Shown here: positions 18,001-21,000 of the stretch, one piece after another | How the letters are laid out: each line of letters opens with the position of its first letter | Position numbering within the stretch: position 1 is the first letter of the stretch | Assembly: GCA_043799385.1 (NCBI GenBank) | Contig: JAZDNV010000009.1 | Location: forward strand, 1-47,427 | Origin: Candidatus Aenigmatarchaeota archaeon | Lineage (GTDB): Archaea > Aenigmatarchaeota > Aenigmatarchaeia > GW2011-AR5 | Direction: 5' to 3' | Length of the DNA: 47,427 nucleotides | Program-made: the position numbers

Positions 18001-21000
18001 GGCTGCCTTCGATTCTTTCTCTATCATGCTCATGATGAATTCCCTGTCCTTCCTGCTTGCTGTGACAGAGATGACAGAGAAAAGTGCGAGATATTTTCTT
18101 AGTCCTATGTTCACGCCCTCTGGCGTTTCCTCGCAGCATATGCGGCCCCAATGTGTCGCATGCAGGGCGCGCGCCTCGAAGTGCTCCTGCGATGCGGACA
18201 ACGGCGAGATAACGTTTCTGAGATGCGCGATTGTCCTTATCTGATTCGTTCTCTCCAATCTTTGGCAAACGCCTGTTCTGCCGCCAATCCACTGGCCGGT
18301 TGCCATGTGCGATATTATTCTTTTTGTCAGGTAATCACTTTCCACGATGGATTTTATCGCCGGCATCTTTCCCCTCTTAACTAATTTCTGATAAGAATAA
18401 ACGATCCTCGAAACCAAGCCGTATTTTCCCAATAGAATTGAACGGAACAACACTTCGAGAAAGTCGCCGACCATCTTCAATCGCTTGTTGCCGTAATGGT
18501 CGATGTCCTGTTCCTTTATCTGCTCTAAGCCGAGCTTCAGGACTTTTCTTATAACTTTCGCAAGGTATAGTGCTTTATCCTTCCTGAACTTTTTATCCTG
18601 ACCAATGTGCGGCAGCAGATATTTGTCCAGTATGTCATTTATTCGCTTGTCACGATACTCCTTTTGCGGTATCTTCAGTTTCTTTCCAATGTATTCTTTC
18701 GCTTCTTCTAATGTTTTGACATCATATTCATACAGGTTGAAGTACACCTCCTGCATCTCGTCCCTGTCTGCAGAAATCGCCTCTATCATTTCTTTGTCCG
18801 TCTCCAACCCCAGTGCACGGAACAGTATGACAACAGGCATCTTCTTCAGATTTGCGAACGATATCGTTATTATTCCGCCTTTTCTCTCTACGAGGTGGCG
18901 CTGCACGAATCCGGACGCTTCTGAATTTATTCTTGCCGTCTCGCTGTCCTTTTTCTTTTCTATGATAGGGCGATTGGACAAAACCTCTTCTACCATCACG
19001 ATTACTCGCTCGGTGCCATTGATTATGAAATACCCGCCGACGTCATCCGGGTCTTCGCCGCTGCTGACCAATTCCTCTTCGCTCATACCGTTCAGCGTGC
19101 ATTTCTTTGATTTGACCATTATCGGTAAATCACCAAGCTTTACCTCTTGCGGCTCCTGCTCAACGCCATTTATAATAGGCGTCATCTCAACGAATATCGG
19201 TGAGGAATAGGTTAAATCGCGAATTCGACATTCCATCGGCGTTATTCCACGTTTCTCCGGTCCTATGTTCACGCCGCCGTCTGCCTCCTTTATGCACGGT
19301 TTTGGTATGCGAACCTTTCCTATCTTTATCTTAAATTCTGCAATCTCGGGCGTCTCGAGCTCGATCTCGCTTATCTCGTCTACTATCTTCTGCACGCGGT
19401 ATTCAACGAATTCGTTGAACGATTCTATCTGATGGTCGACAAATCCGACAGAATTTTTGAATGAATTCAGAATCGTCTTGTATTTTTTCATATTTTCTTG
19501 CATTTCCATGTATTCACCATCGAATCAGATTCAATCGAATCCTTCCATTCTTATATGAAGAGTATCGCCAACGAAATATGAATTACCAGCAATTCCAAGA
19601 TTTTTAAGCACCCTGCCTGCCACTTTCAATGAAAGGCTCTTGTCACCGCAAATGCCTAAACTGTAGTGCGAACGATTGCATGGAGATAACTCTTCTATTC
19701 CTGTTTTTATTTTTTCATACAATCCAAGCATGATAATCACACAACAACGCGATAATAATAATATTCTCCGACAGCGGGGTCATCTCTGGTGATTTTTATC
19801 ACATCCCCCTTCTTTGCGTTCAATCTTTTCACAACCGGGTCATCCTGGCTTATCTTTGGAAGCTGTTTTGTGGTGATGTTCAAATCCTTCAGAAAACCCG
19901 CCTTTTCATCCTCGGTGAGAACGTCATGCTTCGGCACCAGTTCGCTCTGAAAAATATCTATTATCTCTTCCTCTTCCATTCTCTCACCATCGATGAAATA
20001 ATTATGGGCCCGACGGGATGTTCATGCAGCAAGCGTTGCTTACTCCATTTCGAACCCGCGACACCCGGCTAACCTTTTTCCGTCTTTGCGGAATTAAAAG
20101 GCCGATGCTCTTTCCTGTTTTCTCCTTCAGTCTTTCTTGATTAATCTTCGAATCCACATGGACGCCTTTGGCGTCATTTTGTTTACGAAGATTTATACCA
20201 GGCTGAGCTACAGGCCCAACGCCCCGGTCGGGATGTTCTTCATTAAGGCATTACCTTAATAATTTTGAACCCGAGTCGCAGCCGAACTGTAACCTTTTCC
20301 GTCAACGCTTTTCGTTCGTGCCGAAACGGGTTGTGACAGGGCTGCATGCTAGGCCGCTACACCACCGGGGCTTTCGTTTTTTTGATAAACCTTTTTTATA
20401 AAAAGGTTTATTCGTACGAGCATTATCTATTCTATTATCTCAATGCTATTCTCCAAAATATTTAAGAAATTTTGCATTGCACCACATGAACTATGATTCT
20501 ATCGTTTTTTGATAAATCTTTTTTTAAAAAAAGATTTATGTGCAGTTAGCAACGTCCTGCTGTTTCCGGTTTGTGTCCAGTACTTAGCACATCGCTGGAG
20601 AGATTCACTTCCAAGTTCGGATGGGTTTGGGTCTAGCCTCTCCGCTTTGGTCGCCAACCACAAAGATTATTATACTACAGTCACTTATTTAAAGTTTTTC
20701 TCTACTGTGGCTTTGTTTAAAAATTGATGAGCATCATTTAGATGCTCATCGACGTTAGGTTATCAGCGCTAAAGCAAGCTGATAACCTAGTTTTTAAACA
20801 AAGCCTTTACTGACGGATAACGAATAGAATTATTTCTCGCGTCTGCGAAACAAAAAAAGCCTTTTATACATCACTGATAAGTGATTATTATGACGAGAAT
20901 GGCAGAGATTCTGGATTGTTACGAAAGGACTTATGGCCAGAAACCGTGGGTTGAACTGAGCTATGCTAGTTTTGATGGCTTTCAGATAGAGAAATACAGA

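What a model noticed while it worked through the whole genome (the two positions that open the first line are those of the whole stretch)
20005..20371. tRNA genes broken by D-loop, anticodon-loop and T-loop introns of shared families
Of 27 tRNA genes that I could parse with a home-made cloverleaf search, 23 carry introns, 9 in the D-loop, 7 in the T-loop and 6 carry two or three (tRNA-Lys(UUU) C14:20005-20217 has three, its neighbour tRNA-Asp C14:20220-20371 two); 14 of the 27 are missing from the ARAGORN/Rfam table, and a metatranscriptome contig joins the Lys T-loop 5' splice site back to the Asp T-loop 3' exon. I read the introns as one mobile family that has spread through the tRNA set, and the RNA as a 183-nt circle cut out of an Asp-Lys co-transcript by the splicing endonuclease acting across two tRNAs. 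New would be intron transposition on this scale in Aenigmatarchaeota, a corrected tRNA inventory, and an inter-tR [...]
Evidence so far: Own parser: 27 genes, 4 without intron; D 9, anticodon loop 14, T 7, multiple 6; 14 of 27 have no row in rna.tsv; 8 further rows of rna.tsv were not parsed (7 of them 96-122 nt long); 4 parser hits were dropped by eye as false or merged (C25:57552, C4:11144, C13:3879, C21:8764). blastn among intron segments: Ser(UGA) anticodon-loop intron vs Lys(UUU) D-loop intron 89% over 65 nt; Gly(GCC) T-loop vs Gln(CUG) and Ser(GCU) T-loop 87% over 54-55 nt and vs Arg(UCU) anticodon-loop 86% over 37 nt; Gly(CCC) anticodon-loop vs Ile(GAU) D-loop 85% over 34 nt. One EndA gene only: g00267, 207 aa (PF01974 six-frame search: 1 hit, call 65). 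RNA: run X3 (groundwater metatranscriptome, Logan contigs; calls 1 [...]
(Added by a program. Inside this text positions count along the whole contig: contig position 1 is position 1 of the stretch shown here. "Call 12" and the like, gene names such as g00115 and contig names such as C1 are that model's own, and its searches are not shown. The text may have been shortened before it was handed on; [...] marks where a part breaks off. The agent that wrote the report below was given it as the finding of a first reader that could run no searches.)

Follow-up and report, generated by a model that had tools for sequence, protein, structure and literature searches.

The report
Intron-riddled tRNA genes in Aenigmatarchaeota
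Two neighbouring transfer-RNA genes of a tiny groundwater archaeon are broken by five short introns of a kind already known from other archaea, and one RNA fragment suggests that the intron-cutting enzyme sometimes cuts across both genes and closes the piece between them into a circle.

Summary
On the minus strand lie tRNA-Asp(GUC) (20371-20220; anticodon-loop and T-loop introns) and, 2 nt later, tRNA-Lys(UUU) (20217-20005; D-, anticodon- and T-loop introns). ARAGORN and Rfam miss both. Compact orthologues in relatives align with exactly these five insertions, and all five have a bulge-helix-bulge core.

My own census of the genome gives 36 tRNA genes, none in a reversed-genome control. 31 are interrupted by 43 introns in all: 14 D-loop, 21 anticodon-loop, 8 T-loop.

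About 19 of the 43 introns share detectable sequence families. One family also has two copies outside tRNA genes.

One metatranscriptome contig (depth 3) joins Lys A58 to Asp C61, a 183-nt back-joint. RNA cover is confined to that interval. The joint lies 1 nt off each normal splice site. It is exactly where the cutting rule places it if the Asp intron's 3' end pairs with the Lys T-arm. That fold is energetically poor, so I read the circle as a rare by-product.

The kind is known from Thermoproteales, other DPANN and Asgard archaea, and this scan has already reported such introns elsewhere in this genome. The lineage, the inter-tRNA circle and the intergenic intron relatives are new.

The parts
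20220..20371 (-). tRNA-Asp(GUC) gene, 152 nt. Exons 20371-20334, 20284-20264, 20233-20220.
   Evidence: Parser, all stems perfect. 66/73 identity to compact Asp genes of G035 and G010 with two insertions; ARAGORN calls Asp(gtc) after in-silico splicing.
20285..20333 (-). Asp anticodon-loop intron (37/38), 49 nt. Strict BHB: central helix CUGU/ACAG, then an inner helix AACC/GGUU directly adjoining it.
   Evidence: Central helix 4/4. The inner helix was read from the sequence and is part of the MFE fold.
20234..20263 (-). Asp T-loop intron (59/60), 30 nt: a 10-bp hairpin followed by GAAGAACA.
   Evidence: Central helix 3/4 (UUCA/AGAA). Hairpin -8.8 kcal/mol, z -4.4.
20218..20219 (-). 2-nt spacer between Asp and Lys, which implies one transcript.
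   Evidence: Sequence. The RNA contig runs colinearly across it, 20232-20130. Spacers of 0-2 nt in relatives G003, G010 and G017.
20005..20217 (-). tRNA-Lys(UUU) gene, 213 nt. Exons 20217-20197, 20111-20095, 20070-20049, 20018-20005.
   Evidence: Parser. 69/74 identity to the compact Lys of G035 with three insertions; ARAGORN calls Lys(ttt) after in-silico splicing.
20112..20196 (-). Lys D-loop intron (20/21), 85 nt. It holds a family-2 nested hairpin element (20193-20133) plus a 21-nt tail that supplies the helix strand CAGG.
   Evidence: Central helix CCUG/CAGG 4/4. 90% over 60 nt to the Ser(UGA) anticodon-loop intron. Fold z -4.0.
20071..20094 (-). Lys anticodon-loop intron (37/38), 24 nt, near-canonical BHB.
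   Evidence: Central helix CUUU/AAGG 4/4. Inner helix UUCCG/CGGAA in the MFE fold.
20019..20048 (-). Lys T-loop intron (59/60), 30 nt.
   Evidence: Central helix UUCG/UGAA 4/4. A homologous intron lies in Lys of G010: 85% over query 295-367.
20050..20232 (-). Stretch bounded by the RNA back-joint (183 nt): Asp C61-G73, the spacer, and Lys G1-A58 with its D- and anticodon-loop introns retained. Putative circle.
   Evidence: Run X3, contig of 154 nt, depth 3.06, pieces 20050-20100 and 20130-20232, joint 20232|20050 with no shared letters. X3 depth is 0 outside this stretch, except on 5S rRNA.
20378..20409 (-). Hairpin-plus-tail element upstream of tRNA-Asp. Its A/T centre lies about 21-33 nt before Asp +1 and is TATA-box-like.
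   Evidence: Module scan. Upstream regions of the 36 tRNA genes were compared by eye.
20505..20537 (-). Second hairpin-plus-tail element, just 3' of the 5S rRNA gene.
   Evidence: Module scan.
20544..20658 (-). 5S rRNA gene, upstream neighbour on the same strand.
   Evidence: Rfam RF00001, 61.5 bits.
29222..29427 (+). tRNA-Cys(GCA) with a 135-nt anticodon-loop intron (29258-29392) of family 1.
   Evidence: Parser. nhmmer family 1 hit at 29261-29298. No Rfam tRNA hit even at E<=10.
29431..29530 (+). Free-standing family-2 element, 3 nt after tRNA-Cys and just before an ORF. It is not inside a tRNA gene.
   Evidence: blastn, nhmmer 2.9e-21 (it was a seed of that model), fold z -5.0.

Best explanation
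The stretch encodes two co-transcribed tRNA genes, Asp(GUC) then Lys(UUU), read from the minus strand from a TATA-like box upstream of Asp.

Each gene is interrupted by protein-spliced bulge-helix-bulge (BHB) introns. They sit at structurally equivalent sites, one nucleotide before the 3' strand of the D, anticodon or T stem (20/21, 37/38, 59/60). At each site the loop's own 5' nucleotides pair with the intron's 3' end to form the 4-bp central helix. The tRNA stem serves as the outer helix, and two 3-nt bulges carry the cut sites.

The genome's single EndA cuts, and RtcB joins. EndA here is alpha4-like and carries the inserted loop typical of DPANN. This step is inferred from gene content.

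The introns are part of a lineage-wide load: 31 of 36 tRNA genes in this genome are interrupted, and there are too few Rfam-visible tRNAs in most relatives. Many introns descend from a few hairpin-plus-purine-tail sequence families that have entered different loops of different tRNAs. At least one family also lies in intergenic DNA.

Because the Asp and Lys T-loop introns are built alike and sit on one transcript, the 3' end of the Asp intron (GAAC) can occasionally pair with G53-C56 of the Lys T-arm (GUUC). EndA then cuts this cross-gene BHB, and the ligase closes the enclosed 183 nt into a circle. This is an off-pathway by-product that survives because it has no ends.

What is shown: the genes, the insertions, the BHB cores, the families, the enzymes' genes and the RNA joint. 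What is inferred: splicing itself, mobility, circular topology and the cross-gene fold.
For: Genes and introns:
- Perfect cloverleafs.
- The insertions are absent from compact orthologues, and ARAGORN accepts the in-silico spliced forms.

BHB motif:
- The central helix is 4/4 in four of the five introns and 3/4 in the fifth.
- Genome-wide, without any BHB filter, 15 of 27 introns have 4/4 and 10 have 3/4. In the reversed-genome control 10 of 78 have 4/4 and 33 of 78 have 3/4.
- The MFE fold of pre-tRNA-Lys shows the cloverleaf with the D- and anticodon-loop BHB helices.

Enzymes:
- One PF01974 hit, a 207-aa protein with both EndA domains.
- The best solved relative is the M. jannaschii homotetramer 1a79 (7e-37). 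Our protein has a 6-residue insertion where N. equitans NEQ205 has one.
- RtcB is present.

Census: 36 genes against 0 in the control, 31 interrupted.

Families.

Relatives:
- The Asp-Lys tandem is conserved with a patchy intron content, from none in G035 to five in G003.
- Rfam tRNA hits number 3-37 per genome in 40 relatives.

Circle:
- The joint 20232|20050 has no shared letters. X3 cover lies only inside 20050-20232. DNA contigs of X1 and X2 are colinear.
- The observed register gives the all-Watson-Crick helix GAAC/GUUC with bulges AU|C and GA|A and a 3-bp inner helix. Only 3 of 81 registers within +-4 nt reach 4/4.

Literature:
- A BHB is a 4-bp helix between two 3-nt bulges, and EndA products are circularised (PMC7714728, passages).
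- Alpha4 EndAs with the inserted loop L3 in DPANN go with tRNA gene disruption (PMC5829648, passages).
Against: - No spliced tRNA junction and no intron circle was seen in RNA. The one RNA run yielded only two contigs here.
- The circle rests on one contig of depth 3, from a different study than the DNA runs. It lacks 20101-20129. Circular topology is not shown.
- Forcing the cross-gene BHB costs +17.8 kcal/mol against the MFE of the dicistron, +17.3 on a nascent transcript, and +5.1 only in a fragment lacking the Asp 5' part and the Lys 3' part. It has no outer helix.
- EndA has Ala where the five solved archaeal EndAs in the printed alignments have the catalytic Lys, so its chemistry is not textbook.
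- About 24 of 43 introns show no family similarity.
- No empty site or target duplication was found for any element, so DNA-level mobility and its direction are unproven.
Confidence: 0.8

Rival explanations
1. The circle is real, but it comes from the two ordinary cuts (before Asp U60, after Lys A59). One nucleotide is then lost from each end, or reverse transcriptase skips two nucleotides at a modified T-loop-like junction.
For: The normal BHBs are far more stable than the cross-gene one. The chimeric junction could fold into a T-arm-like hairpin of 4 bp, read from the sequence. That such a hairpin attracts T-loop modification enzymes is my inference.
Against: It needs two ad hoc losses that happen to land on the one register giving an all-Watson-Crick 4-bp helix (3 of 81 registers reach 4/4). 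By recalled enzymology, trimming a 2',3'-cyclic phosphate end would leave an end that RtcB does not join. The joint stands in an assembled contig of depth 3, so more than one read carries it.
Confidence: 0.2
2. The back-joint is not an RNA-processing product. It is an assembly or template-switch chimera, or a DNA rearrangement (a tandem duplication with a junction in the T-loops) in the population sampled by X3.
For: There is one contig, depth 3, and no matched DNA from the same sample. The contig does not close on itself: 29 nt are missing.
Against: No letters are shared at the joint (both = 0), so neither a de Bruijn chimera nor a microhomology switch is expected. X3 has zero depth on the flanking 19800-20037 and 20242-20547, so contaminating DNA or a longer transcript is unlikely as the source. 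Three DNA runs give only colinear contigs here. The joint falls on a BHB register.
Confidence: 0.15
3. The intron 'families' reflect shared structural constraint (a hairpin as inner helix, a purine linker), or gene conversion between tRNA arms, rather than movement of an element.
For: All members must form a BHB. T-loop members sit at the same site of similar T-arms. No empty site or target duplication was found.
Against: There is 86-92% identity over 40-60 nt between introns in different loops of unrelated tRNAs (D-loop of Lys versus anticodon loop of Ser(UGA)). The same element occurs in two intergenic places. Orthologous sites hold unrelated introns in other genera: the Lys D-loop intron of G003 is family-1-like.
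Confidence: 0.1
4. The two genes are decaying pseudogenes littered with insertions, and the working Asp and Lys tRNAs are encoded elsewhere.
For: The genome is 91% complete. No mature tRNA reads were seen.
Against: All 21 stem pairs are intact in both genes, and the exons are 90-93% identical to compact orthologues. Every insertion sits on a BHB. No other Asp(GUC) or Lys(UUU) gene was found by Rfam, ARAGORN or my parser. The same interrupted tandem is kept in other genera.
Confidence: 0.03

Closest known systems
Multiple-intron tRNA genes and 'large-scale intron transposition' of Thermoproteales (Sugahara 2008 and Fujishima 2010, as described in the review PMC4033280; I read passages of the review only)
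   Same: Up to three BHB introns per tRNA gene, non-canonical positions, more than half of the genes interrupted, and similar intron sequences in diverse tRNAs.
   Different: A different superphylum (DPANN, Aenigmatarchaeota). The endonuclease is a single alpha-type EndA rather than (alpha-beta)2 with the crenarchaeal loop. One intron family also has intergenic copies. Introns cluster at three equivalent loop sites.
DPANN alpha4-type EndA with the L3 (Nanoarchaea/ARMAN-2) loop, linked to disrupted tRNA genes (Kaneta et al. 2018, PMC5829648; passages and section 9 read)
   Same: A single-gene EndA with an insertion between the catalytic Tyr and His, aligned with that of N. equitans NEQ205, in a genome with many disrupted tRNA genes that standard tools cannot fully list.
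   Different: The four DPANN members for which that paper newly predicted tRNA genes do not include Aenigmarchaeota; the rest of its 46 species I could not see. Here the canonical catalytic Lys position is Ala. I did not see this mentioned in the passages I read.
[quoted passage not shown]
   Same: Most tRNA genes are interrupted. Standard annotators miss introns, often in an enlarged D-loop. Comparison with compact relatives serves as a motif-free test. Repeated gains.
   Different: Another lineage. 'DPANN' does not occur in that text. No RNA circle across genes.
Circular RNAs made by EndA plus ligase at BHB motifs: excised tRNA introns, circular pre-rRNAs, the 5' UTR circle of HVO_1309 (PMC7714728, passages) and circular intermediates of permuted tRNAs (PMC4090602, passage)
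   Same: A back-joint whose two ends lie in the bulges of a 4-bp helix. The enclosed RNA is released and closed.
   Different: Here the enclosed piece would be exon material of two different tRNAs. The helix is formed between one gene's intron and the next gene's T-arm, and the product cannot mature into a tRNA.
Earlier notes of this scan on the same genome (e1-944485, e1-944486) and on hairpin MITEs of Aenigmatarchaeota (e1-965699, e1-4826589, e1-2877647, e1-4996901)
   Same: T-loop 59/60 and D-loop introns, a spreading hairpin-carrying intron family, and about 95-bp nested-hairpin repeats next to tRNA genes and TATA boxes.
   Different: Those notes concern other contigs or genomes. None mentions a genome-wide census, an inter-tRNA circle, or intron relatives in intergenic DNA. 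Sequence identity of my elements with those MITEs was not established: one search found no look-alike.

Membership tests
Archaeal BHB (protein-spliced) tRNA introns | An intervening sequence that is absent from compact orthologues and whose removal restores a canonical cloverleaf | tested here: met
   Five insertions relative to compact Lys and Asp of G035 and G010. ARAGORN accepts the spliced forms.
Archaeal BHB (protein-spliced) tRNA introns | A 4-bp central helix flanked by two 3-nt bulges that carry the splice sites | tested here: met
   4/4 pairs in four introns and 3/4 in the Asp T-loop intron. Genome-wide 25 of 27 introns have >=3/4, against 43 of 78 in the control. The Lys D-loop intron lacks adjoining outer and inner helices, so it is a relaxed form.
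Archaeal BHB (protein-spliced) tRNA introns | Splicing endonuclease and RtcB-type ligase encoded in the genome | tested here: met
   One EndA. RtcB at a contig end, covering profile positions 218-426.
Archaeal BHB (protein-spliced) tRNA introns | Spliced RNA or excised intron circles observed | tested here: inconclusive
   The one RNA run gave only an unspliced contig with a back-joint and a 5S contig. Contigs cannot show absence.
alpha4-type (homotetrameric) EndA with DPANN L3 loop | A single polypeptide of about 170-210 aa with N- and C-terminal EndA domains and no second subunit gene | tested here: met
   PF02778 and PF01974 in 207 aa. One hit in the genome at E<=1 (family) and at E<=10 (protein). 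The genome is 91% complete.
alpha4-type (homotetrameric) EndA with DPANN L3 loop | Catalytic triad Tyr-His-Lys | tested here: not met
   Tyr137 and His153 are present. The Lys position is Ala184 here. It corresponds to K334 of 5x89, as named in the Fig. 5 legend of PMC5829648, and aligns with Lys in 1a79, 3iey_A, 4fz2 and 1r0v. Of 80 Aenigmatarchaeota sequences with data it is Ala in 78 and Ser in 2.
alpha4-type (homotetrameric) EndA with DPANN L3 loop | An inserted loop between the catalytic Tyr and His (L3), and an acidic loop near the C-terminus for tetramer contacts | tested here: met
   A 6-residue insertion relative to 1a79, aligned with the insertion of NEQ205. 'GPK' is invariant in 80 of 80. 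DNEGD aligns with DADGD of 1a79. That this acidic loop mediates tetramer contacts is recalled, not tested.
alpha4-type (homotetrameric) EndA with DPANN L3 loop | Homotetramer; cleavage of relaxed BHB substrates | not testable with these tools
   Needs protein biochemistry.
BHB-derived circular RNA | A back-joint in RNA, absent from DNA, with ends in the bulges of a BHB | tested here: inconclusive
   The joint is present in 1 RNA contig. DNA contigs from other samples are colinear. The register fits a 4-bp helix, but there is no outer helix and the fold costs +17.8 kcal/mol. Resistance to exonuclease is not testable here.
Transposed tRNA intron families (Thermoproteales type) | Significant sequence similarity between introns of different tRNA species and positions | tested here: met
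   For example a D-loop intron versus an anticodon-loop intron at 90% over 60 nt, E 1e-12. Family 1 occurs in D-, anticodon- and T-loops of 11 genes (12 of the 14 hits were seeds).
MITE (miniature inverted-repeat transposable element) | Terminal inverted repeats, target-site duplication, empty sites | tested here: inconclusive
   8-9-bp inverted termini are present in all four family-2 copies (alignment). I found no consistent duplication by eye. No orthologous empty site could be found because synteny is lost.
Intron-encoded guide sRNA (C/D box or H/ACA) | A match to a known guide RNA family or its boxes | tested here: not met
   No Rfam match at E<=10 over the Lys locus or over the free-standing copy.

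The most novel reading that the evidence does not exclude
BHB introns in this lineage are gained at the DNA level, as insertions of a small hairpin-plus-purine-tail element. The same element lands outside tRNA genes: 3 nt after tRNA-Cys, between two ORFs, beside the 5S rRNA gene, and upstream of tRNA-Asp, where its A/T centre serves as the TATA box. A loop-bearing EndA that has even lost the textbook catalytic lysine tolerates the insertions wherever a 4-bp helix with two bulges can form. Because the copies are alike, the enzyme can also pair sites of neighbouring genes and cut out exon-containing circles, such as the 183-nt Asp-Lys circle.
Probability: 0.3. Interest if true: 0.8.

Novelty: new member of a known kind. 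Interest (0 to 1): 0.6.

Why it matters
How protein-spliced introns enter and spread through tRNA genes is an open question. The 2026 Asgard preprint asks it outright, and the 2014 review can only infer 'transposition' from similarity.

This genome offers a compact test case:
- 43 introns lie in 36 genes, at three structurally equivalent sites.
- Families are young enough to align.
- One family also has copies in plain intergenic DNA.
- Related genera differ intron by intron at the same tandem locus.

The genome also shows that default tRNA finders miss 14 of 36 genes here, including all of Asp, Cys, Ile, Trp and Glu found by my parser. That distorts completeness and codon-usage inferences for such genomes.

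The putative inter-tRNA circle, if confirmed, would show a cost of carrying look-alike introns in neighbouring genes, and a new source of archaeal circular RNA.

The endonuclease without its canonical lysine deserves a biochemical look.

Tried and rejected
- A first version of my parser wrongly excluded genes without an anticodon-loop intron unless they had a long variable arm. The cause was a bound of q-30. It was fixed to q-25, and both the genome and the control were rerun. One run timed out.
- Two high-scoring rows were dropped as artefacts. C13:3879-4129 merges two genes. C14:20190-20491 is an alternative frame around Asp.
- Five parses remain ambiguous in anticodon or intron placement: C11:34090, C11:50354, C13:4023, C25:66949 and C30:10852.
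- I tested whether the uncovered 29 nt (20101-20129) are a further splice. The central helix fails at its first pair, read by hand, so this was rejected. I read the gap as low cover.
- I looked for a hidden second EndA subunit. Nothing beyond the one gene appears at E<=1 (family) or E<=10 (protein).
- Rfam gave nothing for the family-2 element or the Lys locus.
- I sought empty sites for the element after tRNA-Cys among 25 relatives. The neighbouring ORF is not next to tRNA-Cys there, so there is no answer.
- A target-site duplication (TA or TAA) around family-2 copies was checked by eye and is not consistent.
- Looking up earlier scan notes by the sequence of 29431-29530 found no look-alike.
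- X1 DNA joints 'skips 44' (20218-20263) and 'skips 212' (20366-20579) have short sides (22 and 33) at 90% likeness. I took them as other organisms and did not use them.
- No spliced exon junction and no intron circle was seen in X3. Since these are contigs, that says nothing about absence.

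
Full report
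**What is at the coordinates.** Read on the minus strand, 20371-20220 is a tRNA-Asp(GUC) gene and 20217-20005 a tRNA-Lys(UUU) gene, separated by two bases.
- Default ARAGORN finds no tRNA in the whole 47-kb window.
- Rfam at gathering score finds only a 5S rRNA gene at 20544-20658 on the same strand.
- Even at E<=10 no tRNA match appears in 19900-20700.
- A whole-genome RF00005 search gives 24 matches at E<=0.001, 21 of them over the cut-off and none on this contig.

**The two genes are real and carry five insertions.** My cloverleaf parser allows one insertion in each of the three loops. It returns Lys with insertions of 85 (D-loop), 24 (anticodon loop) and 30 nt (T-loop), and Asp with 49 and 30 nt. 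All stems are perfectly paired.

A test that uses no splicing motif agrees:
- A relative of the same order (G035) has compact Asp and Lys genes side by side.
- The window's Lys aligns to that compact Lys at 69 of 74 columns, with exactly three gaps.
- The window's Asp aligns to the compact Asp genes of G035 and G010 at 66 of 73 columns, with two gaps.
- After the five segments are removed by coordinate, ARAGORN calls tRNA-Lys(ttt) of 74 nt and tRNA-Asp(gtc) of 73 nt.

**Splicing motif.** The archaeal endonuclease recognises a four-pair helix between two three-base bulges (PMC7714728, passage read). From the canonical 37/38 geometry I derived a register:
- The four bases that end two before the 5' cut pair with the four bases that end three before the 3' cut.
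- Each cut falls after the second bulge base.

With it, the Lys D-, anticodon- and T-loop introns give 4/4 pairs (CCUG/CAGG, CUUU/AAGG, UUCG/UGAA). The Asp anticodon-loop intron gives 4/4 (CUGU/ACAG) and the Asp T-loop intron 3/4.

The rule holds genome-wide without having been used as a filter. Of 27 introns in 20 high-scoring genes, 15 have 4/4 and 10 have 3/4. Of 78 pseudo-introns in a reversed-genome control, 10 have 4/4 and 33 have 3/4.

The three sites (20/21, 37/38, 59/60) are structurally equivalent. Each lies one base before the 3' strand of a stem, so the tRNA stem acts as the outer helix and the loop's own bases as half of the central helix. The MFE fold of pre-tRNA-Lys shows the cloverleaf with these helices.

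**Census.** After I repaired a bound that had hidden genes without an anticodon-loop intron, the parser gives 38 rows at score >=48. The reversed genome gives none; its maximum is 47. I dropped one merged and one alternative row, which leaves 36 genes covering all 20 amino acids. Their make-up is as follows:
- 5 are uninterrupted and 31 carry 43 introns.
- 14 introns lie in the D-loop, 21 in the anticodon loop and 8 in the T-loop.
- 10 genes carry two or three introns, and 3 of those 10 have ambiguous parses.
- 14 of the 36 have neither an Rfam nor a default ARAGORN hit.
- 2 further Rfam hits are not in my list.

**Families.**
- Ser(UGA) anticodon-loop versus Lys D-loop, 90% over 60 nt;
- Gly(GCC) T-loop versus Gln(CUG), 92.5% over 40 nt, and versus Ser(GCU), 86% over 50 nt;
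- Ser(GGA) D-loop versus Leu(UAA) anticodon-loop, 90.6% over 32 nt.

A profile of family 1 (a hairpin of the type CYTTTCTT...AAGAAARG followed by a purine-rich tail) finds 14 places at E<=0.01. All lie inside tRNA genes, in all three loops. 12 of the 14 were seeds, and 2 in tRNA-Ile(GAU) were new.

Family 2 is a nested hairpin with covarying stems, no Rfam match, and fold z-scores of -4 to -5. It has four strong copies. Two are introns: the Lys D-loop intron and the Ser(UGA) anticodon-loop intron. Two are not: window 29431-29530, three bases after tRNA-Cys, and C29:33151-33244, between two ORFs.

Both families end in the same tail. A scan for 'hairpin plus tail' finds 14 places against 4 in the control. 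Two of them are upstream of tRNA-Asp (20378-20409) and beside the 5S gene (20505-20537). The A/T centre of the first lies where most tRNA genes of this genome have a TATA-like box.

About 24 of the 43 introns show no family similarity at my thresholds, so 'one family' is too strong.

**Relatives.** The nearest EndA genes lie in records titled Candidatus Aenigmat(arch)aeota in 43 of 80 loci. The other 37 are 'uncultured archaeon' or 'archaeon', apart from one record titled as a bacterium.
- The Asp-Lys tandem with a 0-2-base spacer recurs in other genera, but its intron content is patchy:

| Genome | Asp introns | Lys introns |
|---|---|---|
| G035 | none | none |
| G010 | none | anticodon loop, T-loop |
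| G003 | anticodon loop, T-loop | D-loop, anticodon loop, T-loop |

- The Lys T-loop intron of G010 is homologous to ours (85%).
- The Lys D-loop intron of G003 has the same length as ours but is family-1-like, not family 2.
- Rfam sees only 3-37 tRNAs per genome in 40 relatives, and 5-27 in the 24 genomes of the same family.
- Family 2 is confined to four genera among those searched.

**Enzymes.**
- The genome holds one EndA gene, encoding 207 aa with both Pfam domains.
- Its best solved relative is the M. jannaschii homotetramer.
- It carries a six-residue insertion between the catalytic Tyr and His, where the N. equitans catalytic subunit also has one. This corresponds to the 'L3' loop that Kaneta et al. 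tie to tRNA gene disruption in DPANN (passages read). The four DPANN members for which they newly predicted tRNA genes do not include Aenigmarchaeota (section 9 read).
- RtcB is present at a contig end.
- Unexpectedly, the catalytic Lys position is Ala here. This is K334 of 5x89 by that paper's figure legend, and it aligns with Lys in 1a79, 3iey_A, 4fz2 and 1r0v. Of 80 Aenigmatarchaeota homologues with data, 78 have Ala and 2 have Ser.

**The RNA.** One run on record as RNA (X3, kept as contigs) holds part of the stretch. Laid on 19800-20800 it gives two records. One is a 5S contig of a relative. The other is a 154-nt contig, depth 3.06 and identical to the window, made of 20100-20050 followed directly by 20232-20130 in RNA sense.
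- X3 has no cover on the flanks (19800-20037, 20242-20547). Contaminating DNA or a full precursor is therefore an unlikely source.
- DNA contigs of X1 and X2 are colinear across both sites.
- The contig spans the Asp 3' end, the spacer and the Lys 5' end, which shows one transcript not yet cut by the end-processing enzymes.
- It retains the Lys D- and anticodon-loop introns.
- It lacks 20101-20129, and circularity itself is not shown.

**Why the joint is 1 + 1 bases off.** The joint links Lys A58 (20050) to Asp C61 (20232). The normal sites are after A59 and before U60.

Now apply the same register to the pair 'upstream strand = Asp intron 3' end, downstream strand = Lys T-arm'. This gives the helix GAAC (20238-20235) with GUUC (G53-C56, 20055-20052), bulges AU|C and GA|A, and a 3-bp inner helix. 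The two cuts fall exactly at the observed bonds. Only 3 of the 81 registers within +-4 bases reach 4/4.

Against this reading, there is no outer helix. The fold costs +17.8 kcal/mol relative to the MFE of the dicistron, +17.3 on a nascent transcript, and +5.1 only in a fragment lacking the Asp 5' part and the Lys 3' part.

I therefore read the circle as a rare mis-pairing product that is over-represented in a standard RNA library. My odds are about 0.45 for the cross-gene motif, 0.2 for normal cuts plus loss of two bases, and 0.15 for an artefact or a DNA variant. The remainder is undecided.

**What is known and what is new.** Three things are in print:
- multiple-intron tRNAs and intron 'transposition' in Thermoproteales (review passages);
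- loop-bearing EndAs with disrupted tRNAs in DPANN;
- heavily interrupted Asgard tRNAs.

Circles from BHB cleavage are also known. This scan has already noted T-loop and D-loop introns and a spreading family on other contigs of this genome (e1-944485, e1-944486), and hairpin MITEs beside tRNA genes in this phylum.

My eight literature searches found three gaps. None turned up an account of tRNA introns in Aenigmat(arch)aeota, of an exon-containing circle cut across two tRNA genes, or of BHB intron families with intergenic copies. Subscription-only papers and preprint supplements were not searchable.

Noticed in passing
G000:C11:18447-19067 (L013:1474-2097, minus strand); relatives L016-L108: The only EndA has Ala184 where solved archaeal EndAs have the catalytic Lys. 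Of 80 Aenigmatarchaeota homologues with data, 78 have Ala and 2 have Ser. The next residue is Arg or Lys in most, but Asn or Ser in 9. An inserted 'K(K/R)GPK' loop between the catalytic Tyr and His is universal and might supply the missing lysine.
   Followed up: partly
G030:C2:63976-64830, G036:C16:11661-12464, G040:C50:15353-16207: Relatives of one family (f7) carry a second ORF of 400-485 aa with two EndA-like repeats beside the short EndA. They also have more Rfam-visible tRNAs (37, 24, 22) than most of the other relatives.
   Followed up: no
window 29431-29530 (+) and G000:C29:33151-33244 (-): There are free-standing copies of the nested-hairpin element that forms the Lys D-loop and Ser(UGA) anticodon-loop introns. 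One lies 3 nt after tRNA-Cys and the other between two ORFs. The stems covary, and the element was found in only 4 of 31 genera searched.
   Followed up: partly
window 20378-20409 (-) and 20505-20537 (-): Two palindromic hairpins with the same A(T/C)CAA-purine tail as the intron families flank the 5S-to-Asp spacer. The A/T centre of the first lies where a TATA box for the Asp-Lys transcript is expected. Earlier scan notes describe similar elements as TA-targeting MITEs in this phylum.
   Followed up: partly
window 29222-29427 (+): tRNA-Cys(GCA) carries a 135-nt anticodon-loop intron. Rfam does not see the gene even at E<=10.
   Followed up: partly
G000:C25:72214-72450 (-): A second tandem lies here: tRNA-Ser(GCU) with a T-loop intron, then after a 3-nt spacer tRNA-Val(UAC) with a D-loop intron.
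   Followed up: no
relatives G002, G019 (genus g3), G015, G034: These genomes show only 3-6 Rfam-visible tRNAs and no EndA match with my query, at 65-77% completeness. Their tRNA genes may be even more disrupted, or the assemblies may simply be poor.
   Followed up: no
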